From: a virus | Taxonomy: Duplodnaviria > Caudoviricetes | IMG/VR virus record: IMGVR_UViG_3300019872_000003 | Location: 1 to 56,999 of that record | Direction: 5' to 3' (one strand) | Length of the DNA: 56,999 bases | Shown: piece by piece, positions 8,137 through 17,387 of the stretch | Position numbering within the stretch: position 1 is the stretch's first letter | Layout of the letters: every line of letters begins with the position of its first letter | Made by a program: the position numbers and the translations under genes | The notes under the pieces: model-generated | What the model was told of the DNA's origin: nothing | Seen by the model: the letters and a program-made list of their open reading frames with translations, nothing else | The model's database searches: none

Positions 8137-8703
8137 TCATAGACGGCCTTCGCAGATCGGACCGATGCCACGCTCGATGCTGGTCTCATCGGTCAGCGTC
8201 CGACCGCATACGATGCATCGACCGTACAGCTTGCCGTAGTGCGCGGCCTCCTTGACGCTGAGCTTCATCGAGGGCTGCACCTTGCGGATCGCACCGGCCT
8301 CGTACTCGAAGCGACCGGTCTTGAAGTCGAGCACCTTTGCGTACTGCCCGCCGGTGGCATGCACGGCGTGTTGGACCTTGTACACCCGACCTCCGACCAG
8401 GTAGTACCCGTCCTCGACCTCGATGCGTCCGCTAACGGCGTCCAACCGAACGGGCGTCTCCTTGATGGTCTTGATCATACCGATGAGCCGGTCTATCCGA
8501 CGGCTCGCCTCCTGCATGTCGAGGTTCTCATGGAAGTCTATCTCCATTTGTTGGACAGCATCGGCGTCGACCGACTTGCCTTCGTGCCTGAGTTTCGCGA
8601 CCTGCAGCGCTTGATACTCGTCCTGCAGCTTTTTCATGAAGGCGACCTGCTTCTCCGAAGCGGTTTTATGCTGGCGCGGGGTGTACCCGTGGTAGGTGCT
8701 CAT
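8137..8703 (-). CDS. DUF6011-type Zn-ribbon protein
   Basis: C-terminal CIVCGRTLTDETSIERGIGPIC; N-terminal ASEKQVAF motif. Confidence 0.75.
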   Translation of the reverse strand: MSTYHGYTPRQHKTASEKQVAFMKKLQDEYQALQVAKLRHEGKSVDADAVQQMEIDFHENLDMQEASRRIDRLIGMIKTIKETPVRLDAVSGRIEVEDGYYLVGGRVYKVQHAVHATGGQYAKVLDFKTGRFEYEAGAIRKVQPSMKLSVKEAAHYGKLYGRCIVCGRTLTDETSIERGIGPICEGRL

Positions 8704-8957
8704 CACTCCCACCACATCGAGGTGACCTCGTAGTCGCACTCGTCGACGTCGTCGCCGAGGAGGTACACGATCACGAAGGCAACGGCCGGAAAGGGAACAC
8801 CCGTCATGCACAGGCCCATCACCTTGCCGTGCCAGTTCGGCTCTTCTACCCACTCCACGATCTTGTCCTCGAGGAGTGAGGCGATCCGATCCTTCGTCTC
8901 GCCGTCGGCCTGACGCTCGATGACCGCCTGCGCGCGCTCCGCCAGGGTCGCCATCAC
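8703..8957 (-). CDS. Hypothetical protein
   Basis: Tight overlaps with neighbours, phage-like codon usage. Confidence 0.55.
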   Translation of the reverse strand: MMATLAERAQAVIERQADGETKDRIASLLEDKIVEWVEEPNWHGKVMGLCMTGVPFPAVAFVIVYLLGDDVDECDYEVTSMWWE

Positions 8958-9175
8958 GCACCAGCCTTACGGGCGCAAGGTGCAACCTCGAACCAATCGT
9001 CCGGGTGCACGCCGGCCATGTGCTCGCTGGTGTCGAACGGGTGAACATTGTCCAGCTTCGCTTCGTGGCCGCAGCCCGCCTTGTGAATCGCCGTCGCACC
9101 TGTCCGCCTGTCGTAGCCGAGGGTGATCGACGCAGCCTTCACCTCGTGGGCGAAACACTGGCTCCATGCCTTCAT
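8954..9175 (-). CDS. Hypothetical protein (HxxxCxH...PC)
   Basis: First gene after the 9210-9264 promoter; GACGGAAGGA RBS. Confidence 0.6.
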   Translation of the reverse strand: MKAWSQCFAHEVKAASITLGYDRRTGATAIHKAGCGHEAKLDNVHPFDTSEHMAGVHPDDWFEVAPCARKAGA

Positions 9176-9209
9176 CGTTCTGTCCTTCCGTCGTTGTGCT
9201 GATGAGAAG

Positions 9210-9264
9210 AATCTACAAGGCGACGGGAGGCGTGTCAATAGGTTCTTTCAAGATTCTTTAGAGA
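9210..9264 (-). promoter_or_regulatory. SigA-type promoter with conserved upstream box (copy 2)
   Basis: TTGACA(9238-9233)-17nt-TAGATT(9215-9210), with the same TCTCTAAAGAATCTTG box. Confidence 0.8.
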
Positions 9265-9282
9265 ATCGAAAGCTACGTTCGA

Positions 9283-10719
9283 TTACTTCAAGATCGCGAC
9301 GTAATCGTTCGTGACGTCTACTACGTACTCGCGCGGGTGCTCGCCGTACTTGATCCCGAGTTTCTTGTTGTGCACGGCCAGCGGAACCCCGGTCAACGGA
9401 CCAGGCTTGCCCTCGACTGATCGCTTCGCCCAGTGCGCGATCCAACGTCCAGCCTGGACGGGCACGCCCTTGCCCCAGCCAGTGCCTAGGTCGCCGGCGT
9501 CGCGCACAGGCCAGATCTTCCAGGCATCGGGGAAGCCCTGCACCCGAGCGACTTCACGCTGCGTCAGTGTGCGACCGAGGTGCGGGTGCAGCACGAGGTG
9601 CACACCTCCGCCTGTGACGACACGGGCAGGACGATCCCAGTACCATCTGCTGATCTGATTGTGACCCATGGCGAAGTTAGTATCGCGCAGGCGCTGCCAC
9701 TTCGGCAGACCGCGCATCAGTGGCTTCTGATTCCCGTGACGATCGAGGTTGTCCGTCATCACAGGCTCGCCGTTGTCGTCGTATACGGCCTCCTGTGTTT
9801 CGTAATCCCAACCGGGCGGGAGCTTGTTGTACTTCTCGTAGTGACGACGCAGGACGGTGCCGATGCTGTCTCCTTCAGGCCAGTCCCCATCCATCGCTAG
9901 GATCAGCTCCTGAGCTCGGTCGAGCGATGGTGAACGGCAGACCTCGTGTCCGTCGACGATACCCGTACCGTCGTGGATCGTCTCACGGCACCACCGGCTG
10001 CTGTTCATCACCGTGATGAGACCGCGCTCCGAGCACTTGCACTCCCACGTCTCCGTCGACGTGAACGGCTCCGGACGGCAGGGATGCGTGACGGATCTGT
10101 ACGGCTGCGCCAGCATCGTGAGACCGAGCGGCTCGAGATCACGCAGTGCGTCGCCGAACGTTGGCACGTAGTCGAGCTTGTGGTGGTCGACGCCAAACGG
10201 GATGCGGGCGCAGACGAAGAAGAAGCGCTTGCGGATTGACACTCCTCCGACCGATGCGTTGTTGTGCAGCACGTGGTAGATGGTGTAGGTCTCTCCGGCC
10301 AGTTCCTCCAGGAGAGCGTGCAGCTTCCGCATGAGCGGGATCCCCTGCGTGAACGCCTGCTGGACGGACTCGAAGATCACGAGCTCAGGACCCACCTTGC
10401 CGGCATATCGGATGAGCTCCCACATGTAGTCATTGATCTTCGAATCCGTACCGCGGAACGCCTTGGGGGACAGCGTGCTGAACCCACTGCACGGCGGGTT
10501 GCCGAACACCAGCTGCGCCTTGCCGCCTTCAAGCTGGTCCCAGTCCTGCGTCGCTGCTGTGATGCTGTCCCAGTTCTCGCCGAGGAGAGGACGGTTCGCC
10601 AGTGTGTTGAGCACGCCGAACCCAACCTCACGTGACACCTTCTTCTCGAGCTCCCAACCCGCCTGCACAGCGCCGAGTGTGAAGCCACCCCCGAACCCAT
10701 GCACATCGATCGCTTTCAC
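9283..10719 (-). CDS. C5-cytosine DNA methyltransferase homologue with altered cofactor pocket (candidate carboxymethyltransferase)
   Basis: Motif I VHGFGGG, IV GNPPCSGFS, VI FESV, VIII IRKRFF, IX RTLTQREVARVQGFPD, X GKGVP. Confidence 0.88.
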   Translation of the reverse strand: MKAIDVHGFGGGFTLGAVQAGWELEKKVSREVGFGVLNTLANRPLLGENWDSITAATQDWDQLEGGKAQLVFGNPPCSGFSTLSPKAFRGTDSKINDYMWELIRYAGKVGPELVIFESVQQAFTQGIPLMRKLHALLEELAGETYTIYHVLHNNASVGGVSIRKRFFFVCARIPFGVDHHKLDYVPTFGDALRDLEPLGLTMLAQPYRSVTHPCRPEPFTSTETWECKCSERGLITVMNSSRWCRETIHDGTGIVDGHEVCRSPSLDRAQELILAMDGDWPEGDSIGTVLRRHYEKYNKLPPGWDYETQEAVYDDNGEPVMTDNLDRHGNQKPLMRGLPKWQRLRDTNFAMGHNQISRWYWDRPARVVTGGGVHLVLHPHLGRTLTQREVARVQGFPDAWKIWPVRDAGDLGTGWGKGVPVQAGRWIAHWAKRSVEGKPGPLTGVPLAVHNKKLGIKYGEHPREYVVDVTNDYVAILK

Positions 10720-11210
10720 GATGGGACCGTGATGTTGAAGTCGCCGTTTTCCATGCAGTTGCCGCGGTGTGAGATCGGCACGTCATCTGCGTAGATGGTG
10801 AAGTAGGCGCACCCAGTGCCGTCGTCGTCGAGTGCACGATGGCATGACGGGCACTTGTCCGTCACACCGTCGTAACCGTCCGCCTGGCGCTTCGCGTTCT
10901 TGGCCCACTTGGCTGCGTAGCGTTCCGTCAGCTCGATGCCATCCATACCTGCGACGATGCAGAGGTTCATGAAGAAGTGGAAAGCGTCGATGAGCTCGCC
11001 CTTGAATGCATCCTCGTTCACGTGACGGCTAGTCGCCCACGGCTTCCATCCCGTCTCAGCCAACGCCTCGTGCAGCTCGTCCTCGAGCGCCAAGACGTTC
11101 CACCTGATGAACTCGATGCGCGCCTCACCCTCGAGGTCGGCAGGCGATAGCTTGTACGATGCGACCTGCAGTGCGTTCTGCATCTTGATGAGATCAGAGA
11201 TGTCAGCCAT
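10716..11210 (-). CDS. Dimeric all-alpha dUTPase/dCTPase (T4 gp56-like) with C-terminal Cys cluster
   Basis: EDELHEAL..WKPW..ELIDAFHFF..K..KN..RQ..GY. Confidence 0.85.
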   Translation of the reverse strand: MADISDLIKMQNALQVASYKLSPADLEGEARIEFIRWNVLALEDELHEALAETGWKPWATSRHVNEDAFKGELIDAFHFFMNLCIVAGMDGIELTERYAAKWAKNAKRQADGYDGVTDKCPSCHRALDDDGTGCAYFTIYADDVPISHRGNCMENGDFNITVPS

Positions 11211-11763
11211 ACAGTGTTCCTCCTAGGTGGTACGACTTGAGTTCGTCGCGTGAGCGGGTGTCTGCAATGTCACAGGTGATGAGGCTGAGCCATGCGAGTT
11301 GCGCAGCCATCGACGCAGACGGGATTGTACCGTGCATCGAGCCGTCGTTTGCCACGTACGTCAGCGTCATCGCTGTCGCTTTCGTCAGCGAGTTGCCAGC
11401 CCTGCCGGCGGTGATGGCAAGCTTGAACACCTTCTGATGAGAAGCTGCGACAGCCATGAGAGTCTCATGCGTTTCGCCTGAGTGCGAGATGGCGATGAGC
11501 GTCGACCCGTGGAAGAGCGTCGGACCGAACATGCCTCCGTCGCCGTGCAGCATGTCGGTTGCGTGAATGGCATGCGCGGCAATCCCGACTGACCTGAGTA
11601 GCGCTGCTCCGTCGCGTGCGACCTCATACGACTTGCCGACTCCGGTCAGAGCGACCGCGTGCGCGTCCCTCAGCTCTCGCTGAAGCACCTGGCGAACGGT
11701 CGGGTTGGCTCGGGCACGGACGGACTCGACCGCGTTGACAATGTCCTGTAGCACGTCATCCAT
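11203..11763 (-). CDS. Single-SIS-domain sugar-phosphate isomerase, KdsD/GutQ (arabinose-5-phosphate isomerase)-like
   Basis: TGVGKS, DMLHGDGG (cf. EAxHGDLG), ISHSGET, C-terminal HLGGTL (cf. HPGGxL). Confidence 0.85.
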   Translation of the reverse strand: MDDVLQDIVNAVESVRARANPTVRQVLQRELRDAHAVALTGVGKSYEVARDGAALLRSVGIAAHAIHATDMLHGDGGMFGPTLFHGSTLIAISHSGETHETLMAVAASHQKVFKLAITAGRAGNSLTKATAMTLTYVANDGSMHGTIPSASMAAQLAWLSLITCDIADTRSRDELKSYHLGGTLYG

Positions 11764-13226
11764 CAGAGATCCATGAGCATGTCGTTGGCTACGAAGAACA
11801 TCGCCTTCGCCTGCCGATCGTCGTGCATCGGGCAGGCGGCTAAGAGCGTGAGCGCAACGGCTGCACTTAGACGACGATCGCTGATGTACGTGCGCAGGAC
11901 CGACCACACAGCTTCGATCTCCGCTGGACGGTACGGCAGGATGTGGTTGACGCCAGCGAACAGGTCGTGCGTGATGGCGGAGAAGATGGGACTGTACGCC
12001 AGCTTCGCATACTCATACGACTGCGGAACGATGCCACCTCGAGGATCGATGAGTGTGCATGCGTTCGTGTTCAGTGAGTACAAGATGTTGTTGAAGTTCA
12101 GGTCACCGTGCCCGTTGACCCACAGGTCGTCGCCGATGATGTCGCCCGCCTTCTCGATGCGGTCCGTCAGGATCGGCGTGAGGAGCGAAGCGTCCCACTT
12201 GCGGATGCGGGCCAACGCCTTGCCGACATAGAACTCCCACACCAGCTCGGGCTCGCTTGTCGTTTCCGTCGTCCACAGGTCTCGTTGCACACGATCGACA
12301 ACCGACTGCACGATCCCAGCCCACGTGTTAGGACGTCCAGGCCAGTACAGCCAGAGCTCAGCGAGACTCGGTAGGTCGACGTACTGCATCGTGTAGGAGT
12401 CGTCAGTGAAGTCATACACCTGGGGGAACAGCGAAACCCTGCCACGTGCACCGTACAGCGTCGCCATGTACGCGAGCTCATCCGTTGACACGCCAGACTT
12501 CGTGATCGTGCCGTCATCATTGAGCGTCAGCGTGTGGTGCGCACGTGCGATGAACTTGTCACGACGCGCTCTGCCTAGTGCGAGGACATCGCCGACGTCC
12601 TGCCACGTGTTGAAGAAGTACTGCATCCGCGTGCCGTATGCGTTCAAGAACGGCGCCATGCCGATCTCAATGTCCTGCCTGCTCCGACCCGCCCACAGCG
12701 CTGTCGATGCAGCGGCATGCACCTTGTCGATGTCGTTGAAGTGGTAGATGCCGATGGTGACGCGATCGTCAGGACCGGGTATGCCGTCTACGTACTTGAG
12801 GACGTTCGCATCGTAGAAACACCATGACCTTGCGACGTCAGGCGTACGACCGACACCAACCCACTCGTCCTCGGTGCCGAACTCCTCGTTGATGACGGTG
12901 TCCGACATCAGTACGACGAGTCCCTTCTCACCATCACGAGGCAGTTCGTTCAGACCAGTCAGCAGTGCATCCACTGGGCCAGCTGGCGTCGCTTGTACGG
13001 CCAGGCCGACGTTGTGCAGTCCAGCTCGACGGATGACGTCACCAACCTGTCGGTGTGTCTCAGGACTCGTCACGACAACAATGTCCTCGCACCCCGCTCG
13101 TTCGAGAGCGAAGCACTGGTTGATGACCTGCGGTCGTGATCCGACAGACACGAGTGCCTTCGAGATCTGTGCGGCCAACGGACCGAGGCGTGTGCCTCGA
13201 CCGCCGGCCAGGATAATGCCCTTCAC
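11763..13226 (-). CDS. Sugar-1-phosphate nucleotidyltransferase fused to an APH/choline-kinase-like kinase
   Basis: IILAGGRGTRL..SKAL..WQDVG at the N-terminus; HGDLNFNNIL..LIDPRG at the C-terminus; GTG start overlaps the upstream stop. Confidence 0.85.
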   Translation of the reverse strand: MKGIILAGGRGTRLGPLAAQISKALVSVGSRPQVINQCFALERAGCEDIVVVTSPETHRQVGDVIRRAGLHNVGLAVQATPAGPVDALLTGLNELPRDGEKGLVVLMSDTVINEEFGTEDEWVGVGRTPDVARSWCFYDANVLKYVDGIPGPDDRVTIGIYHFNDIDKVHAAASTALWAGRSRQDIEIGMAPFLNAYGTRMQYFFNTWQDVGDVLALGRARRDKFIARAHHTLTLNDDGTITKSGVSTDELAYMATLYGARGRVSLFPQVYDFTDDSYTMQYVDLPSLAELWLYWPGRPNTWAGIVQSVVDRVQRDLWTTETTSEPELVWEFYVGKALARIRKWDASLLTPILTDRIEKAGDIIGDDLWVNGHGDLNFNNILYSLNTNACTLIDPRGGIVPQSYEYAKLAYSPIFSAITHDLFAGVNHILPYRPAEIEAVWSVLRTYISDRRLSAAVALTLLAACPMHDDRQAKAMFFVANDMLMDL

Positions 13227-14527
13227 AGTCCTAGCCTCTTCTCGATGGTGGTGATGCACCGCTGCTTGTGAAGCTCGTCCTTGAGCAGATTTGTCTGTGC
13301 TTGCTGCAGTGCCATGAAGGTGTCGCGATCCTCGTTCAGGAGGTCCACCCTCTGCTTCAGTTCTTCAGGAGTCCGAACGCGAAGCCATGCGGCCAGCCAT
13401 CCATCTTCCGTGTTGGGATCGTGCTCACCGAGCTTCGGAACGATGTGCCCTTGGGTGTCGTACAGTGGGTGGAAGAAACAGATGGTACCAGCGGCGAACG
13501 ACTCCCATGGCTTCGCTGTTGCCCAGCCCGATCCAGACGACGGCGTGGTGAAGGTCGACTTCACCGTGGAGACCTTGCCGTTCAGCTGGTCGTACGCGAG
13601 CGGACGAATGTCCATCTCGAGCTTCGCAAGCGAGTCCTTGCTCCACGTACCGTACACCCACGACGGATCGAGTGGTTTGATGTAACGCTGCATGGCGTCG
13701 AGCCTTGTGAGCTCGGGCTTCATGCCGTAGCCGCGTGCCTCGTTGATGATGACCCCGAACTTGTCGCGGTCCTCCCAACTGAGCCAGTCATCGTCCGACT
13801 CTTCGATGCCGACCAGCTCGAGACCTGATGCGATGTACCTATCCTTCGAGACCCACAGCCCGTCCTTCACGACCAGGTCGCCGAAGCCTGTCTCCTGCGG
13901 AGTGCGCGTGTCGCCGTATCGTTCGCACGACTGCACACGCTCCCAGTCGAACTGACTCAGGATCGGGTGCCGCCTCGGCCACTTGAAGTCCCGCGCCTTG
14001 ATGTAGTTGCGGACGTCCGGGTCGAGCCAGATCTCTTCACGGTTCACGGGATCGTTGCGCCGCCAGAAGTTGACGCCGCGCACGAGGTGCGACCCGTAGT
14101 GCACCTGGGAGATCTGGCTCTTCGTGTAGACGCTCCGGTCGCTGACTTTTGGGATCGGAGAGTTGCTCGTCCCGTGCTGTCCGCACCAGACGATCATGCC
14201 GTCGATCGTGTCGTACGACTTCATGATGAGGTCGTCGTAGAACGACACGGACCAGTAGTAGGTCTCAATGGACTGATCCTCAACACGGTACAAGCGCTGG
14301 GCGTGCTCACGGATGTACGGGATCCACTCTTGCCAGGGGTTCTCGATGTTCGGCAGAGGAGGCACCCAGCCCGAGTTGCGACCGAGCACGACCCACATAA
14401 CATCGGGGTGTCGCCTGGCGAGAGTGAGGAGGAGAGCGGGCGGCTCATTGTCGCCGCCCGACTCTCCCCACTTCGCCGGGTCAACCTCGATCACTCGACC
14501 GATCTTGCCGTACCCGACGCGCCGCAT
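13223..14527 (-). CDS. GT-B glycosyltransferase, T4 beta-glucosyltransferase-like (candidate DNA glycosyltransferase)
   Basis: The C-terminal ATAKPWESFAAGTICFFHPLYDTQGHI...VRTPEELKQRVDLL segment parallels the T4 BGT C-terminus as I recall it. Start ATG at 14527. Confidence 0.7.
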   Translation of the reverse strand: MRRVGYGKIGRVIEVDPAKWGESGGDNEPPALLLTLARRHPDVMWVVLGRNSGWVPPLPNIENPWQEWIPYIREHAQRLYRVEDQSIETYYWSVSFYDDLIMKSYDTIDGMIVWCGQHGTSNSPIPKVSDRSVYTKSQISQVHYGSHLVRGVNFWRRNDPVNREEIWLDPDVRNYIKARDFKWPRRHPILSQFDWERVQSCERYGDTRTPQETGFGDLVVKDGLWVSKDRYIASGLELVGIEESDDDWLSWEDRDKFGVIINEARGYGMKPELTRLDAMQRYIKPLDPSWVYGTWSKDSLAKLEMDIRPLAYDQLNGKVSTVKSTFTTPSSGSGWATAKPWESFAAGTICFFHPLYDTQGHIVPKLGEHDPNTEDGWLAAWLRVRTPEELKQRVDLLNEDRDTFMALQQAQTNLLKDELHKQRCITTIEKRLGL

Positions 14528-14528
14528 C

Positions 14529-15323
14529 TTAGAAGGGAGACGCGGGAGGGAGCGGAACACCAGCCGGGGCGGCGGGTGCAGGAGGCGCCTCGACGGGCGC
14601 GACGGGGGCAGCAGCGAGTGCCGCCTGCTGAGCCTGCCACGCAGCGAACTGCGCGGCCTGGTCGTCAGGAATCGCAGGCGCTGCGGCCGGAACCAGCGGA
14701 GTCGGATCCTGAACCGGCGGTGCGGGCGGAATCGGAGGTGCGACAGGGGGCGCTGGCGGTGCAGCAACGGGCGGCGCTGGTGGTACTACCGGGGCTGCAG
14801 GAGCAACCGGCGGCGCTGCCTGGGGAACCACGGAGGGAGCGGGAGGAACCGCGCCGGGGCCAGGGATCGACGGAGCGGCGCCGATACCGGCGACAGCGCC
14901 CGCGATGACGCCAGCACCGGCCGGCGAGAGCGACTTGACGTTCTCCCGCATCTGACCCTGGTACGCACGGTGGTCGATCGCCACGTGGCAGGTCTTGCCC
15001 ACGAGCGACTGTGCCACCAGCTGCGGTGCGGGGTTGGACGCGAAGAAGGTCTCGTCGAGACCCATCGCCTTCATGTTCAAGAAGAACATGCGGAGGGTGT
15101 TGGCGTTGTCTGCCGTGAGGACGATGTTGTTGTAGATCGTGCGTCCGTGCTGCGGACCGCCACTGATCTTGTACTTCACCTTCCACATCGGCTTGCCGGT
15201 CGAGGACGGCTTGTACTCCGCGGTCTCGACGAACACGTCGTAGTCACCGACCGGAACCGGCTCGAACGACAACGAGCCGACACCCTGAAGGAGTGACCCG
15301 AAGTTGACTGGCTGCTCTGACAT
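14529..15323 (-). CDS. ssDNA-binding protein (DUF669-like) with Pro/Ala-rich tail
   Basis: FEPVPVGDY..SSTGKPM; C-terminal PF; sits next to a Sak4-like ATPase. Confidence 0.8.
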   Translation of the reverse strand: MSEQPVNFGSLLQGVGSLSFEPVPVGDYDVFVETAEYKPSSTGKPMWKVKYKISGGPQHGRTIYNNIVLTADNANTLRMFFLNMKAMGLDETFFASNPAPQLVAQSLVGKTCHVAIDHRAYQGQMRENVKSLSPAGAGVIAGAVAGIGAAPSIPGPGAVPPAPSVVPQAAPPVAPAAPVVPPAPPVAAPPAPPVAPPIPPAPPVQDPTPLVPAAAPAIPDDQAAQFAAWQAQQAALAAAPVAPVEAPPAPAAPAGVPLPPASPF

Positions 15324-16410: not shown

Positions 16411-17387
16411 GACGCTTCCACCTTTCCTTCGTCCTCTTCGTGATACCGCTCGTGGGGATCCACGTGCGTGTAGTACTCGTTGAGCAGTCCCTCCCAATCG
16501 CTTCCATCGTCCATCATCGAGCACATGGCGAAGAAGTCGCAGGACCACGTGCAGTCCCGTGAAGGTCGGGGCGGGCAGACGTACTGGTGATCTGCACCGA
16601 CGTCGAGACCCTGTCGGGTCTCCACGATCTCCTCGAGGATCTTGTGCACGCGTACCCACATGTTTTGGATCTCGGTGCGGTTGTGTCGGACCTCGAGACG
16701 TCCGTAGAACGGTGGCTTGGCGGCCGCTGTACGCTTCACCTTGCGGAGCATGTTGTACAGCCCGCCGTCAGTGTGCCACGGTGGCTCGTCGTTGCCCGTC
16801 TGATACAGCGAGTCCAGTCGTTCGAGCAGGTGGTAGAACTTCATCTGCTCGTCCATGGGCAGGATCTTGGCGGGCTCGGTCAGCGATGCAACAGTCTTGT
16901 GATCCAAGAAGAGTCGAGCGTTGTCCGACTTACGAACGACGCGCTGGTCGAGCTTGCCGCGCATCCGCACACCCTCGACCTTGGACGGAACATCGATGAC
17001 GGTCTCGACTGCCACCACTTCGATGCCCTCGTCCGAGCCTGTCTCTTCGAGCCAGTCGGTGTAGCCTTCGAGCATGGCGACCGCCATGAGCTGTTCCTTC
17101 CGCAGCTCCACGATGTCTGCGGCTCGTCCCTCAGCCTCGAGTGCGTCGGCGTCGAGCTGGTACACGTTGTTCACAACGTCCACCGGATTGAGACCCTCGC
17201 CGTACATGGCCTGCAGTGCGATGTGCACACGAGTCCCGAGCTCTCGTGCGCCGGTTGCACGTGCACCCGAACGCTTGAGACCCTTCTCTCGGTAGTAGGC
17301 GAGGTACCACTTGCGTCGGCAACTCTTGAACGTCTGGATCTCGCTGTTGCTGACCGTGAGCGGCTGACCTAGCCAGATGGCTGTCAC
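16407..17387 (-). CDS. PD-(D/E)XK RecB/Cas4-like exonuclease
   Basis: SNSEIQTFKSCRRKW, GTRVH, GKLD..LDHKT, C-terminal C..SC...C (4-Cys cluster). Confidence 0.85.
   Translation of the reverse strand: MTAIWLGQPLTVSNSEIQTFKSCRRKWYLAYYREKGLKRSGARATGARELGTRVHIALQAMYGEGLNPVDVVNNVYQLDADALEAEGRAADIVELRKEQLMAVAMLEGYTDWLEETGSDEGIEVVAVETVIDVPSKVEGVRMRGKLDQRVVRKSDNARLFLDHKTVASLTEPAKILPMDEQMKFYHLLERLDSLYQTGNDEPPWHTDGGLYNMLRKVKRTAAAKPPFYGRLEVRHNRTEIQNMWVRVHKILEEIVETRQGLDVGADHQYVCPPRPSRDCTWSCDFFAMCSMMDDGSDWEGLLNEYYTHVDPHERYHEEDEGKVEAS

What the first reader, a model, noticed from the sequence alone, without database searches (positions are those of the whole stretch)
9283..10719. C5-MTase homologue naturally carries the motif X Asn-to-Lys change that makes a carboxymethyltransferase
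Seen: motif X reads GKGVP (Lys417, codon 9471-9469) instead of GN[AS]VP. Motif I has His for Phe (VHGFGGG) and motif VI is ESV rather than ENV, while the catalytic PC, Glu and RxR are kept. Known: engineered M.MpeI N374K and Dcm N436K, at this motif X Asn, use carboxy-SAM to make 5-carboxymethylcytosine. I also recall a natural phage carboxymethyltransferase with a basic residue in this pocket. Inference: the enzyme may transfer a carboxymethyl or other anionic group instead of methyl. No CmoA-like CxSAM synthase is visible here, so the host would have to supply the cofactor.
Basis: partly seen in the sequence, partly recalled or inferred. Interest (0 to 1): 0.85.

Follow-up and report, generated by a model that had tools for sequence, protein, structure and literature searches.

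The report
Lysine-pocket cytosine enzyme of hydroxymethylcytosine phages
A phage gene that looks like a DNA cytosine methyltransferase carries a conserved lysine in its transfer pocket and always travels with the genes that make hydroxymethylcytosine DNA, so it probably does something other than plain methylation, though not the carboxymethyl transfer first proposed.

Summary
ORF 9283-10719(-) is a 478-aa C5-cytosine methyltransferase-fold protein. Lys417 (AAG, 9471-9469) aligns with the motif X Asn. It is not an error: Lys is present in 120/120 close homologues, 81/81 full-length related phage loci and 139/144 distant representatives, never Asn. ESV (for ENV) and PPC-Ser (for PPC-Gln) are equally fixed.

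The carboxy-SAM reading is weakly supported. CmoA is absent from the window and from 0/50 related phage records (0/28 near-complete). Only 3/301 sampled Actinomycetes genomes have even a weak CmoA-like match. The CmoY-type ligase is absent in 0/51. The same search finds CmoA in Synechococcus phage S-B43 and Streptomyces phage TurkishDelight, which carry true Arg-type CmoX.

Instead the clade is phage-only and bound to a T4-like 5-hydroxymethylcytosine module:
- a dCMP-hydroxymethylase-type thymidylate synthase homologue in 28/28 near-complete genomes;
- a MazG-like pyrophosphohydrolase directly upstream in 74/83 loci;
- a T4 beta-glucosyltransferase-like enzyme in 18/28, plus sugar-nucleotide genes.

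Some relatives are fused to O-methyltransferase-like or 5-hmdU-kinase helical domains.

Best reading (about 0.4): a Cys-dependent hypermodification enzyme acting within 5hmC DNA. Plain methylation, carboxymethylation and another anionic alkyl transfer remain rivals. I found no description of this clade in the paper library.

The parts
9283..10719 (-). C5-cytosine methyltransferase-fold gene (P0001, 478 aa), member of the phage-only 'S/S/K' clade
   Evidence: ORF and translation. PF00145 E 5.7e-18. AF2 pLDDT 91.7. Foldseek matches to DNMT1, MET1, ZMET2, 3g7u and HaeIII.
10681..10707 (-). Motif I, D5-V-H-G-F-G-G-G-F13. The canonical Phe position is His7, and the first Gly of the loop is Phe9.
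   Evidence: HMM alignment to HaeIII 'ISLFSGAGGL'. The His7 position varies in the clade: H 87 of 116 in close homologues; Q 64, H 17, Y 10, E 9, N 9, M 7 in representatives.
10477..10500 (-). Motif IV, N74-P-P-C77-S78-G-F-S81. Catalytic Cys77; Ser78 replaces the canonical Gln.
   Evidence: C77 in 118/118 and 131/132. Position 78 is S 111 / A 7. Of 25 cellular relatives, 23 have PPCQ and 1 has PPCE; the 25th, L083, is a member of this clade and has PPCS. CmoX has SPPCS.
10363..10371 (-). Motif VI, E117-S118-V119 (canonical ENV)
   Evidence: ESV in 119/119 and 82/82. S118 in 140/145. CmoX and TurkishDelight gp123 keep ENV.
10225..10233 (-). Motif VIII, R163-K-R165
   Evidence: R163 and R165 in 120/120 and 82/82.
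9460..9474 (-). Motif X, G416-K417-G-V-P420. Lys417 codon AAG at 9471-9469.
   Evidence: Conservation.
10716..11210 (-). MazG-like / dUTPase_2 nucleoside triphosphate pyrophosphohydrolase, translationally coupled to the MTase-like gene (GTGA overlap)
   Evidence: PF08761 E 6.1e-11. phrog_18650 E 2.3e-45. Homologue in 74 of 83 loci, median 118 bp upstream of the MTase-like gene. Substrate not determined; there is no significant PDB sequence match.
11203..11907 (-). SIS-domain sugar-phosphate isomerase, arabinose-5-phosphate isomerase-like. The true start is probably the ATG at 11763.
   Evidence: PF01380 E 2.8e-9. phrog_5670 'arabinose 5-phosphate isomerase' E 4.4e-13, matching from residue 51. 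The start is inferred from the overlap with the upstream ORF.
11763..13259 (-). Nucleotidyltransferase (N-terminal) fused to an APH-like kinase (C-terminal): sugar activation
   Evidence: PF00483 E 9.6e-18. A homologue shows NTP_transf_3 plus APH. RB69 and DLP3 have the same architecture in Table 1 of PMC13326640.
13223..14767 (-). GT-B glycosyltransferase resembling T4 DNA beta-glucosyltransferase. The first ~76 residues of the longest ORF are probably not part of the protein.
   Evidence: AF2 pLDDT 82.6, with residues 1-76 below 50. Foldseek ranks 1-6 are T4 BGT (best E 8.7e-9); T4 AGT is at ranks 19, 22 and 47; phage HY126 GT is at rank 44. The profile match spans 13226-14527.
22652..23611 (-). 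Thymidylate synthase homologue with the dCMP hydroxymethylase signature (D143, C146, D169, D177 in E. coli ThyA numbering)
   Evidence: PF00303 E 4.6e-20. Best PDB match is MilA CMP 5-hydroxymethylase, E 3.4e-25. Signature residues, read with the criteria in PMC13326640 sections 24 and 28.
23604..24458 (-). P-loop kinase next to the TS homologue, a probable (hydroxymethyl)dNMP kinase
   Evidence: Weak Thymidylate_kin match, E 2.5e-4. phrog_761 E 2e-15. Not related to HMUDK_hel proteins. The function is inferred.

Best explanation
The gene encodes an intact cytosine-C5 DNA-modifying enzyme with the C5-methyltransferase fold.

It belongs to a deep, phage-only clade. The clade is defined by three fixed changes around the place where the transferred group or the 5-substituent of the flipped base sits:
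- motif IV PC-Gln becomes PC-Ser/Ala;
- motif VI ENV becomes ESV;
- motif X Gly-Asn becomes Gly-Lys.

The clade is a constant component of a T4-like 5-hydroxymethylcytosine (5hmC) module. That module has a dCMP-hydroxymethylase-type thymidylate synthase homologue, a nucleotide kinase and a MazG-type pyrophosphohydrolase directly upstream. Most genomes also carry a T4-beta-glucosyltransferase-like enzyme with genes for an activated sugar.

My best reading is that it is a hypermodification enzyme working on the phage's own 5hmC-containing DNA. I do not read it as a carboxy-SAM carboxymethyltransferase or an ordinary restriction-modification methylase.

Proposed mechanism:
- The base is flipped out.
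- Cys77 adds to C6, while Glu117, Arg163 and Arg165 hold the cytosine ring.
- The widened pocket (Ser78, Ser118) with Lys417 accommodates and activates an oxygen-bearing or anionic 5-substituent. This could be 5-CH2OH or a derivative.
- The substituent is then exchanged or further derivatised.

Shown here: the fold, the motifs, their conservation, the restriction to phages, the gene neighbourhoods and co-occurrences, and the absence of CmoA, CmoY and TET.

Inferred: that the phage DNA carries 5hmC, that this enzyme's substrate is 5hmC rather than cytosine, the role of Lys417, and the nature of any co-substrate.
For: (1) Catalytic apparatus kept. C77 is in 118/118, E117 in 119/119, R163 and R165 in 120/120. 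The same holds in 82 loci and 150 representatives.

(2) Pocket triad fixed.
- K417: 120/120, 81/81, 139/144.
- S118: 119/119, 82/82, 140/145.
- Position 78: S 111 / A 7.
- Cellular relatives are Q/N/N: 23 of 25 have PPCQ and 21 of 23 have Asn at motif X.

(3) The adenosine-contact positions are not fixed, whereas HaeIII, 3g7u and CmoX keep them.
- Motif I Phe position: Q 64, H 17, Y 10, E 9, N 9, M 7.
- Motif II Glu position: E 91, S 14, G 12, A 7, T 4. It is Ser29 in the window.

(4) Phage-only. In one genome each of 185,579 species, only one close relative was found, on a 17.6-kb MAG contig. The nearest Atlas clusters are 97-100% viral.

(5) Strict co-occurrence with a cytosine-specific TS homologue.
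- PF00303 is in 46 of 51 records and 28 of 28 at least 90% complete. It is also in Kurnik and Sixama.
- C146 and D177 are present in 15 of 15 copies within reach.
- D143/D169/D177 are seen in the window, Sixama and Kurnik.
- The reverse does not hold. 362 phage records have such a TS homologue, but only 15 have the MTase-like gene.

(6) The MazG-like gene is in 74 of 83 loci, median 118 bp upstream. In the window the two genes are translationally coupled.

(7) Enzymes that decorate hydroxyl groups lie beside it or are fused to it.
- T4-BGT-like GT in 42/83 loci and 18/28 complete genomes.
- RGP/STELLO-type GT in 23 loci, epimerase in 23, NTP-transferase+kinase in 14.
- UDP-galactopyranose mutase and UDP-glucose dehydrogenase in relatives.
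- Among 21 of 22 long representatives scanned: FkbM-type methyltransferase domains 7, Methyltransf_23 3, HMUDK_hel 1.
- A stand-alone HMUDK_hel protein directly upstream in one record.

(8) Small complete phages (32-36 kb) have the TS homologue, kinase, dCMP deaminase, MazG and this gene. No GT was seen in the stretches I scanned.

(9) Precedent. An ordinary C5-methyltransferase forms covalent complexes with 5hmC DNA and appears to remove the hydroxymethyl group as formaldehyde (PMC11347137, passages).
Against: - No experiment and no chemistry was tested. That the virion DNA contains 5hmC is inferred from gene content only.
- T4 manages 5hmC without such an enzyme, so no required role is defined.
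- The Gly-rich loop of motif I is well conserved, and Glu is still the commonest motif II residue: 91 of 131 in representatives, 65 of 79 in loci. A SAM-type cofactor may therefore still bind. That would favour alkyl transfer to an unsubstituted C5.
- The two changes shared with CmoX (loss of the motif IV Gln, basic residue in motif X) point to an anionic transferable group rather than to a 5hmC substrate.
- Co-occurrence with the TS homologue could partly reflect common descent of the replication module. The related loci share SNF2 helicase, PD-(D/E)XK, AAA_24 and DUF669 genes, so they are not independent.
- The fused methyltransferase domains could simply be second, unrelated methyltransferases.
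- The TET/JBP search had no positive control.
Confidence: 0.4

Rival explanations
1. It is an ordinary SAM-dependent 5-methylcytosine methyltransferase. It methylates cytosines that escape hydroxymethylation, or a short motif, and the S/S/K pocket is a lineage peculiarity.
For: PF00145 membership, a full catalytic set and a conserved Gly-rich loop. Glu is the commonest motif II residue in the wider clade. Engineered N-to-K enzymes still methylate with SAM: M.MedI N377K >99% protection, M.MpeI N374K 28% (PMC12015181). SAM is available in any host.
Against: Lys, Ser118 and Ser/Ala78 are invariant over a clade that reaches about 30% identity. Cellular relatives are almost uniformly N/N/Q. This argues for selection on something other than methyl transfer. 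The Phe of motif I is never kept. A plain anti-restriction methylase has no reason to occur only in genomes with a dCMP hydroxymethylase homologue (28/28). Nor is there a reason for it to be absent from bacterial genomes.
Confidence: 0.2
2. This is the first reader's proposal: a natural Lys-type carboxymethyltransferase that uses carboxy-SAM to make 5-carboxymethylcytosine.
For: Lys sits at the position where engineered Lys (M.MpeI N374K, M.MedI N377K) and natural Arg (CmoX R350) bind the Cx-SAM carboxylate. The clade shares with CmoX the loss of the motif IV Gln. Yang et al. selected candidates by Arg only, so a Lys type would have been filtered out (section 13). Three of 10 fused long representatives carry a Methyltransf_23/11-type domain, which could methyl-esterify a carboxylate; that function is my inference.
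Against: No CmoA in the window. None in 0/50 related records, 0/28 near-complete. The same search scores S-B43 CmoA at E 2.5e-34 and TurkishDelight at 1.3e-26. Among 301 sampled Actinomycetes-class genomes, only 3 have a match at E<=1e-10 and none passes the cut-off. An actinophage that does have a CmoX (Arg, 37% identical to SpCmoX) carries CmoA and the ligase beside it. Asn_synthase-type ligase is in 0/51. No fused domain matches CmoA. The clade is only remotely related to CmoX: 8yf3 E 8.3e-5 against HaeIII 1.9e-17.
Confidence: 0.1
3. It transfers another carboxylate-bearing group from a SAM-type cofactor that needs no extra synthase. The candidate is the 3-amino-3-carboxypropyl group of SAM itself. 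The acceptor would be unmodified cytosine, either left-over C in phage DNA or host DNA, and Lys417 would bind the carboxylate.
For: The pocket is wider than in CmoX: ESV as well as PC-Ser. The part of motif I that normally lines the methionine end of SAM is rebuilt (Phe to His/Gln, first Gly to Phe9) while the Gly-rich loop is kept. The cofactor would be available in any host, which fits the absence of CmoA. C-C bond formation by aminocarboxypropyl transfer is known from wybutosine synthesis (TYW2; recalled, not checked here).
Against: There is no direct evidence, and no such DNA base is known. If cytosine is fully replaced by 5hmC, phage DNA offers no free C5. The motif II Glu is not fixed.
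Confidence: 0.1
4. It is a weapon against host DNA. It modifies or damages ordinary cytosine in the host chromosome, while phage DNA is immune because its C5 is occupied. This would be comparable in logic to T4 functions that discriminate cytosine DNA (recalled).
For: It explains the one-way dependence on the dCMP hydroxymethylase homologue (28/28; 362 against 15 records). It explains the tight link to a MazG-like enzyme that could remove dCTP. It also explains the absence from bacterial genomes and prophages.
Against: The gene lies in the replication and modification operon with the glycosyltransferase, not among early genes. Fusions to hydroxyl-decorating or 5-hm-pyrimidine-associated domains fit action on phage DNA better. 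There is no evidence of toxicity.
Confidence: 0.1

Closest known systems
CmoX, DNA cytosine C5-carboxymethyltransferase of Synechococcus phage S-B43 (PDB 8YF3; Yang et al. 2025, PMC12783734)
   Same: Phage-encoded C5-MTase fold. A basic residue replaces the motix X Asn: Arg350 in 'VGRMVPP' against Lys417 in 'WGKGVPV'. The motif IV Gln is replaced by Ser (SPPCS against NPPCS). Cys, Glu and RxR are kept.
   Different: CmoX keeps canonical motif I (F25), motif II (E47), motif III (D69) and ENV. It sits beside CmoA and the CmoY ligase. The window's clade has none of these partners and has ESV and a rebuilt motif I. It is only remotely similar: profile E 8.3e-5; hhalign 91% probability over 70 columns only. 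It travels with a 5hmC pathway instead.
Engineered carboxymethyltransferases M.MpeI N374K and M.MedI N377K
   Same: Lys at the same motif X position. It is proposed to form a salt bridge with the carboxylate of carboxy-SAM (PMC12015181 passages).
   Different: These are single or double mutants of CG-specific bacterial enzymes with otherwise canonical motifs. They still methylate with SAM. The cofactor is supplied by E. coli CmoA or added in vitro.
T4-type 5-hydroxymethylcytosine systems and the RB69/DLP3 arabosylation clusters (Lee et al. 2026, PMC13326640)
   Same: The window has the same set of helper genes:
- a TS homologue with N177D and L143D;
- a nucleotide kinase;
- a MazG/dCTPase-like enzyme;
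- a GT-B DNA glycosyltransferase;
- an arabinose-5-phosphate isomerase-like SIS protein;
- a nucleotidyltransferase fused to an APH-like kinase.
   Different: Those systems contain no C5-methyltransferase homologue; the word 'methyltransferase' occurs 0 times in the main text. The window's TS homologue keeps D169, so by the paper's D169N criterion it is a hydroxymethylase, not a 5-hydroxy-dCMP synthase. The hosts are Actinobacteria.
Phage methyltransferase + TET/JBP dioxygenase + glycosyltransferase pathways (Burke et al. 2021, PMC8256090; bioRxiv 10.1101/2023.12.21.572611; abstracts seen in a search listing only)
   Same: A phage-specific C5-methyltransferase clade next to DNA glycosyltransferases.
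   Different: No Tet_JBP family member in the window or in 0 of 50 related records (no positive control rang). Here 5hmC would come from the nucleotide pool through the TS homologue.
M.HaeIII and the prophage CP-933R methyltransferase 3g7u (closest solved structures by sequence)
   Same: Best PDB sequence and profile matches: 1dct E 1.9e-17, 3g7u E 6.4e-15. Same fold, with TM-score normalised to target 0.73 and 0.71.
   Different: They have F in motif I, E in motif II, PPCQ, ENV and GNAVP. The window has H, S, PPCS, ESV and GKGVP, and a much larger target-recognition region of about 190 residues.

Membership tests
C5-cytosine DNA methyltransferase superfamily (PF00145) | Class I Rossmann-like catalytic domain with an inserted target-recognition domain | tested here: met
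   PF00145 E 5.7e-18. AF2 pLDDT 91.7. Foldseek probability 1.00 to DNMT1, MET1, ZMET2, 3g7u and HaeIII.
C5-cytosine DNA methyltransferase superfamily (PF00145) | Motif IV Pro-Cys nucleophile, motif VI Glu, motif VIII Arg-x-Arg | tested here: met
   PPC77, E117 and R163/R165 are present and invariant.
C5-cytosine DNA methyltransferase superfamily (PF00145) | Canonical cofactor-side residues: motif I Phe, motif IV Gln after Cys, motif VI Asn (ENV), motif X Asn (GN) | tested here: not met
   The window has His7, Ser78, Ser118 and Lys417. The consensus is recalled, and is seen in HaeIII and 3g7u and in 23/25 and 21/23 cellular relatives.
C5-cytosine DNA methyltransferase superfamily (PF00145) | SAM-dependent methyl transfer to C5 | not testable with these tools
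   Needs an assay. The motif II Glu is Ser29 in the window and varies in the clade.
CmoX-type carboxy-SAM DNA carboxymethyltransferases | Arg at the M.HhaI Asn304 position binding the Cx-SAM carboxylate (R350) | tested here: inconclusive
   The position is basic but Lys, not Arg. In 144 representatives it is K 139 and R 2.
CmoX-type carboxy-SAM DNA carboxymethyltransferases | 'SPPC' motif used by Yang et al. to select members | tested here: not met
   The window has NPPC. N74 is in 118/118 close homologues and position 74 is N 63 / T 14 in loci. The criterion is in section 13 of PMC12783734.
CmoX-type carboxy-SAM DNA carboxymethyltransferases | A Cx-SAM synthase (CmoA) encoded by the phage or available in the host | tested here: not met
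   0 in the window. 0/50 records, 0/28 near-complete. 0/301 over the cut-off and 3/301 at E<=1e-10 in sampled Actinomycetes-class genomes. Positive controls S-B43 and TurkishDelight were found. The host of the window's phage is not known; it is inferred from relatives on Micrococcus and Gordonia.
CmoX-type carboxy-SAM DNA carboxymethyltransferases | Neighbouring AMP-forming amide ligase (CmoY, asparagine-synthase-like) in many members | tested here: not met
   PF00733 in 0 of 51 records, with controls ringing in 11 of 14 genomes.
CmoX-type carboxy-SAM DNA carboxymethyltransferases | Sequence kinship with SpCmoX | tested here: not met
   8yf3 ranks 41st in the profile search, E 8.3e-5. It is not among the 40 single-sequence hits. 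TurkishDelight gp123, by contrast, is 37% identical to SpCmoX, E 3.9e-74.
T4-like 5-hydroxymethylcytosine DNA module (genomic context, not the protein itself) | TS homologue with N177D (cytosine) and L143D/E (hydroxymethylation) and without D169N | tested here: met
   D143, C146, D169 and D177. Criteria from PMC13326640 sections 24 and 28. Best PDB match is MilA.
T4-like 5-hydroxymethylcytosine DNA module (genomic context, not the protein itself) | DNA glycosyltransferase of the T4 BGT/AGT type | tested here: met
   Foldseek ranks 1-6 are T4 BGT, and AGT is also matched. The activity itself was not tested.
T4-like 5-hydroxymethylcytosine DNA module (genomic context, not the protein itself) | 5hmC actually present in virion DNA | not testable with these tools
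   Needs nucleoside LC-MS of a cultured relative.

The most novel reading that the evidence does not exclude
The clade is a new kind of DNA hypermodification enzyme. A C5-methyltransferase scaffold has given up methyl transfer and uses its Cys-C6 covalent chemistry on 5-hydroxymethylcytosine in phage DNA. Lys417 would activate or bind the oxygen-bearing 5-substituent, so that it can be exchanged for another group. A variant is that the enzyme installs the hydroxymethyl-type handle on left-over cytosines after replication. Either way it would be the cytosine counterpart of the kinase/pyrophosphorylase route known for 5-hydroxymethyluracil.
Probability: 0.3. Interest if true: 0.85.

Novelty: new variant of a known kind. 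Interest (0 to 1): 0.68.

Why it matters
A single Asn-to-Lys change is what turns laboratory methyltransferases into carboxymethyltransferases, and the only natural example known so far uses Arg together with its own cofactor synthase.

Here nature has fixed Lys, with two further pocket changes. The clade is large: at least 223 clusters at 50% identity with E<=1e-30, and 182 loci in IMG/VR. It is confined to phages and always accompanies a hydroxymethylcytosine pathway, without the cofactor synthase.

Whatever it does, each candidate activity would be informative:
- a new C5 adduct;
- processing of 5hmC;
- a safeguard for stray cytosines.

Any of these would add a step to the known logic of T4-like DNA modification.

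It could also give a new enzyme for DNA labelling or sequencing chemistry. It is directly testable, because cultured relatives exist on non-pathogenic Gordonia and Micrococcus hosts.

The work also corrects an attractive but probably wrong reading: a basic residue at this position is not enough to infer carboxy-SAM use.

Tried and rejected
Sequence error at codon 417. Rejected, because Lys is conserved.

Restriction-modification or prophage methylase. Rejected. The scan of one genome per 185,579 species gave a single close relative, on a MAG contig. The other 66 hits are canonical or partial methyltransferases.

MT + TET + GT pathway. No Tet_JBP in the window or in 50 relatives. No control genome rang, so this negative is weak.

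5-hydroxycytosine (RB69-type) instead of 5hmC. Rejected by the D169 criterion.

The window's P-loop kinase as a 5-hmdU-type DNA kinase. No similarity to the HMUDK_hel proteins. Those proteins and the fused domain of P0258 themselves lack a Walker A motif, so 'kinase' should not be read into them.

S-B43 'pyrophosphatase' as a relative of the window's MazG-like protein. No similarity, E 9.1.

MazG-like protein against PDB sequences. Nothing significant, so dCTPase against dUTPase stays open.

Literature.
- MetaGPA paper PMC8670742: 0 occurrences of methylase, MazG or dUTPase terms.
- Searches for a description of this clade or of 5hmC in actinophages found none. That covers only the library searched.
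- Supplements are closed, so I could not check whether Lys-type sequences appear among the hits of Yang et al., or see their Supplementary Figs 5 and 8.

A regex control for motifs I and II in cellular relatives failed to parse most sequences and was dropped. The statement that canonical enzymes keep Phe and Glu rests on HaeIII, 3g7u, CmoX and TurkishDelight (motif I only), seen, and on recall.

Megablast of the gene against phage records: no match.

No residue-level structural superposition, docking or pocket analysis was possible, because model coordinates are not returned.

Complex prediction, the look-up of sequencing runs, read laying and the RNA tools were not used, since nothing in the question called for them.

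Caveats on counts.
- The 825 homologues come from only the 8000 best word-sharing candidates.
- The 80 IMG/VR loci are the best of 182.
- 50 of those 80 were taken for whole-record searches. I chose the longer contigs.
- The loci are related phages, not independent samples.

Full report
**What is there.** The window (56,999 bases, 61.7% G+C) is an IMG/VR virus record, 84% complete by CheckV.
- Its left half runs on the minus strand and encodes replication and nucleotide metabolism.
- Its right half encodes virion proteins.

ORF 9283..10719(-) gives a 478-aa protein, P0001. Its GTG start overlaps the stop codon of the upstream gene as GTGA. It matches Pfam PF00145 at E 5.7e-18. An AlphaFold2 model built on 57 homologues is confident, with mean pLDDT 91.7 and pTM 0.91. 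Foldseek matches it with probability 1.00 to DNMT1, MET1, ZMET2, the prophage enzyme 3g7u and M.HaeIII.

**The observation.** Codon 9471-9469 is AAG, Lys417, within G-W-G-K-G-V-P-V.
- HMMER aligns GKGVPV to the GNAVPV of M.HaeIII in three runs.
- Twenty-three cellular C5-methyltransferase ORFs were aligned to the family profile at this motif. Of these, 21 have Asn, one Glu and one Gln.
- Yang et al. equate M.HhaI Asn304 with Arg350 of CmoX (PMC12783734, section 10). In the S-B43 sequence that residue lies in V-G-R-M-V-P-P, the same G-x-x-V-P frame.

I could not make a residue-level 3-D superposition, because coordinates are not returned.

**Conservation.** A word-indexed search found 825 homologues at E<=1e-5 among the 8000 candidates scored. 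In the best 120:
- Lys417 is present in 120/120;
- E-S-V in 119/119;
- P-P-C in 118/118;
- both Arg of motif VIII in 120/120;
- Ser78 in 111, with Ala in 7.

In 82 phage loci reaching about 30% identity, Lys is in 81/81 (one ORF is truncated) and ESV in 82/82.

A full profile search of 1.84 billion representatives gave 223 clusters at E<=1e-30. In the best 150 the motif X column is K 139, R 2, Q 1, M 1, S 1 with 6 gaps, and never Asn. Ser118 is in 140/145.

By contrast, of the 25 nearest ORFs from cellular genomes, 23 have PPCQ and one has PPCE. Only one has the Ser/Ser/Lys triad, on a 17.6-kb MAG contig. The change is therefore an old, selected feature of a distinct clade.

The two positions that contact the adenosine of SAM in canonical enzymes are not fixed.
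- The motif I Phe position is H, Q, Y, E, N or M.
- The motif II Glu position is E 91, S 14, G 12, A 7, T 4 in representatives, and Ser29 in the window.

**Is it a carboxy-SAM enzyme?** The precedent is real.
- M.MpeI N374K and M.MedI N377K gain carboxymethyl transfer (passages of PMC12015181).
- Natural CmoX uses Arg350 and depends on a phage CmoA (abstract and sections 10, 13, 14 of PMC12783734).
- The clade also shares with CmoX the replacement of the motif IV Gln.

But every other element of that system is missing.
- The NCBIfam CmoA model finds nothing in the window.
- It finds nothing in 50 related virus records, 28 of them at least 90% complete.
- The same search scores the validated S-B43 CmoA at E 2.5e-34 and a Streptomyces phage CmoA-like gene at 1.3e-26.
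- tblastn with E. coli CmoA finds 82 phage records. The organism tally names 10 genera and leaves 2 unnamed. No Gordonia or Micrococcus phage appears among those named or in the rows listed.
- The nearest cultured relatives infect Micrococcus and Gordonia. In 301 sampled genomes of the class of a Rothia genome, none passes the CmoA cut-off and three have weaker matches.
- Streptomyces phage TurkishDelight shows what an actinophage CmoX system looks like. It has ParB-like genes, a CmoX 37% identical to SpCmoX with Arg in I-G-R-A-V-P-P, a glutamine-amidotransferase ligase and CmoA side by side.
- The asparagine-synthase-type ligase family is absent from 51 of 51 records of the Lys clade.
- The clade is only remotely similar to CmoX: 8yf3 at E 8.3e-5 against 1.9e-17 for HaeIII; hhalign aligns 70 columns only.
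- N-to-K mutants still methylate with SAM.

I put the carboxy-SAM reading at about 0.1.

**What the surroundings say.** Upstream of the gene lie, in order of increasing distance:
- a MazG-like/dUTPase_2 pyrophosphohydrolase;
- a SIS sugar-phosphate isomerase, closest PHROG 'arabinose 5-phosphate isomerase';
- a nucleotidyltransferase fused to an APH-like kinase;
- a 514-aa protein without Pfam match.

I folded the 514-aa protein with 26 homologues (pLDDT 82.6). Foldseek ranks 1-6 are T4 DNA beta-glucosyltransferase, with T4 alpha-glucosyltransferase and the phage HY126 glycosyltransferase further down.

Further upstream are a family A DNA polymerase, a thymidylate synthase homologue and a P-loop kinase. 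The TS homologue's best solved relative is MilA, a CMP 5-hydroxymethylase, at E 3.4e-25. In E. coli ThyA numbering it has D143, C146, D169 and D177. Lee et al. (PMC13326640, sections 24 and 28) give criteria for these positions:
- N177D marks cytosine nucleotides;
- L143D/E marks hydroxymethylation;
- D169N marks 5-hydroxy-dCMP synthases.

This one therefore reads as a dCMP hydroxymethylase. The helper set matches their Table 1 for RB69 and DLP3. Those phages have no methyltransferase homologue.

**Across the clade.** I clustered ORFs within 8 kb of the gene in 83 loci: 80 from IMG/VR, plus Kurnik, Sixama and the window.

| Neighbouring family | Loci of 83 |
|---|---|
| MazG-like gene (median 118 bp upstream) | 74 |
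| BGT-like glycosyltransferase | 42 |
| RGP/STELLO-type glycosyltransferase | 23 |
| NAD-dependent epimerase | 23 |
| Nucleotidyltransferase + kinase | 14 |

Relatives also carry UDP-galactopyranose mutase and UDP-glucose dehydrogenase.

Over whole records:
- The TS homologue is present in 46 of 51, and in 28 of 28 at least 90% complete. It is also in Kurnik and Sixama.
- All 15 copies within reach have C146 and D177. Sixama and Kurnik also have D143 and D169.
- The BGT-like enzyme is in 32 of 51 and 18 of 28.

Small complete phages of 32-36 kb have the TS homologue, a kinase, a dCMP deaminase, MazG and this gene. No glycosyltransferase was seen in the stretches I scanned.

The dependence is one-way. 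362 phage records carry a similar TS homologue, but only 15 carry the methyltransferase-like gene.

**Fusions.** Of 22 representatives of 540 aa or more, 21 were scanned.

| Extra domain | Count |
|---|---|
| FkbM-type methyltransferase | 7 |
| Methyltransf_23/UbiG-like | 3 |
| HMUDK_hel (Pfam's '5-hmdU DNA kinase helical domain') | 1 |
| Intein | 1 |
| Winged helix | 1 |
| No recognised extra domain | 8 |

None matches CmoA. A stand-alone HMUDK_hel protein lies directly upstream of the gene in one record and about 10 kb away in another: 2 of 51 records. These proteins lack a Walker A motif.

No Tet_JBP member was found, though that search had no positive control.

**Reading.** The clade has several distinctive properties.
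- It keeps everything needed to attack C6 of a flipped cytosine.
- It has rebuilt the space next to C5 and is relaxed at the adenosine contacts.
- It exists only in phages, and only in phages that appear to make 5hm-dCMP.
- It sits next to, or is fused to, enzymes that decorate hydroxyl groups.

The explanation that covers most of this is an enzyme acting on the phage's 5hmC DNA. Lys417 and the two Ser residues would accommodate and activate the 5-substituent. Ordinary C5-methyltransferases already show weak chemistry of this kind on 5hmC (PMC11347137 passages). I give this 0.4.

It is not shown. The conserved Gly-rich loop, the frequent motif II Glu and the convergence with CmoX keep alive transfer of an anionic group from a SAM-type cofactor to free cytosine:
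- carboxymethyl, 0.1;
- another group such as aminocarboxypropyl, 0.1.

Plain methylation stands at 0.2 and an anti-host role at 0.1.

**Comparison and novelty.**
- The protein is a member of the C5-methyltransferase superfamily by fold and catalytic motifs. It fails the canonical cofactor-side motifs.
- It works like CmoX only in having a basic residue and a small residue in the transfer pocket. It fails the CmoX membership tests for SPPC, CmoA, CmoY and kinship.
- Its context is a T4-like 5hmC/glycosylation module, apparently undescribed for actinophages in the library I searched.

I class it as a new variant of a known kind.

**Limits.**
- The host is inferred, not known.
- The related loci are not independent.
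- Supplements of the key papers were closed.

Noticed in passing
window 11203-14767 and 22652-24458: The phage carries a near-complete T4/RB69-like cytosine hypermodification set:
- a dCMP-hydroxymethylase-type TS homologue;
- a P-loop kinase;
- a MazG-like enzyme;
- a T4-BGT-like glycosyltransferase;
- an arabinose-5-phosphate-isomerase-like SIS protein;
- a nucleotidyltransferase+APH kinase.

This predicts glycosylated, possibly pentosylated, 5hmC in an actinophage. I found no description of that in the paper library.
   Followed up: partly
window 17384-19178 (-): The SNF2-family helicase is split into two overlapping ORFs: 18000-19178 (N-terminal SNF2 domain) and 17384-18037 (Helicase_C). 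Homologues in related loci are single ORFs of about 600 aa (cluster median 609). Possible explanations are a frameshift, an assembly error or a real split.
   Followed up: no
protein P0258; L015 about 8562-9527 (record G010); L154 (record G041): HMUDK_hel ('5-hmdU DNA kinase helical domain') occurs without any Walker A motif. It is fused to the C-terminus of a clade member, and it stands alone directly upstream of the clade gene in one record. It may be a 5-hydroxymethylpyrimidine-DNA binding or processing module rather than a kinase.
   Followed up: partly
protein P0224: One clade member is interrupted by an intein (Hint, LAGLIDADG and intein-splicing domains) ahead of the C-terminal methyltransferase part.
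   Followed up: no
L156 (Streptomyces phage TurkishDelight, record 89500-93518): A complete CmoX-type cluster lies at the right genome end of a Streptomyces phage. It comprises two ParB-like genes, an Arg-type CmoX (37% identical to SpCmoX), a glutamine-amidotransferase ligase and a CmoA-like gene. All are annotated only as 'methyltransferase' or by domain names.
   Followed up: partly
L061 11383-12495; L015 6491-7675: Relatives carry UDP-galactopyranose mutase or UDP-glucose dehydrogenase next to the clade gene. This suggests different sugars, furanose or uronic acid, in different phages.
   Followed up: no
window 13223-14767 and 11203-11907: The longest ORFs overstate two genes. The first ~76 residues of the glycosyltransferase ORF have pLDDT below 50 and overlap the DUF669 gene. 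The SIS ORF probably starts at the ATG at 11763, which abuts the end of the upstream ORF (11763-13259).
   Followed up: partly
L067 12020-12895 (record G041, 128 kb): A phage-integrase-family gene lies about 800 bp downstream of the clade gene in one large record. Yet the clade was essentially absent from bacterial genomes.
   Followed up: no
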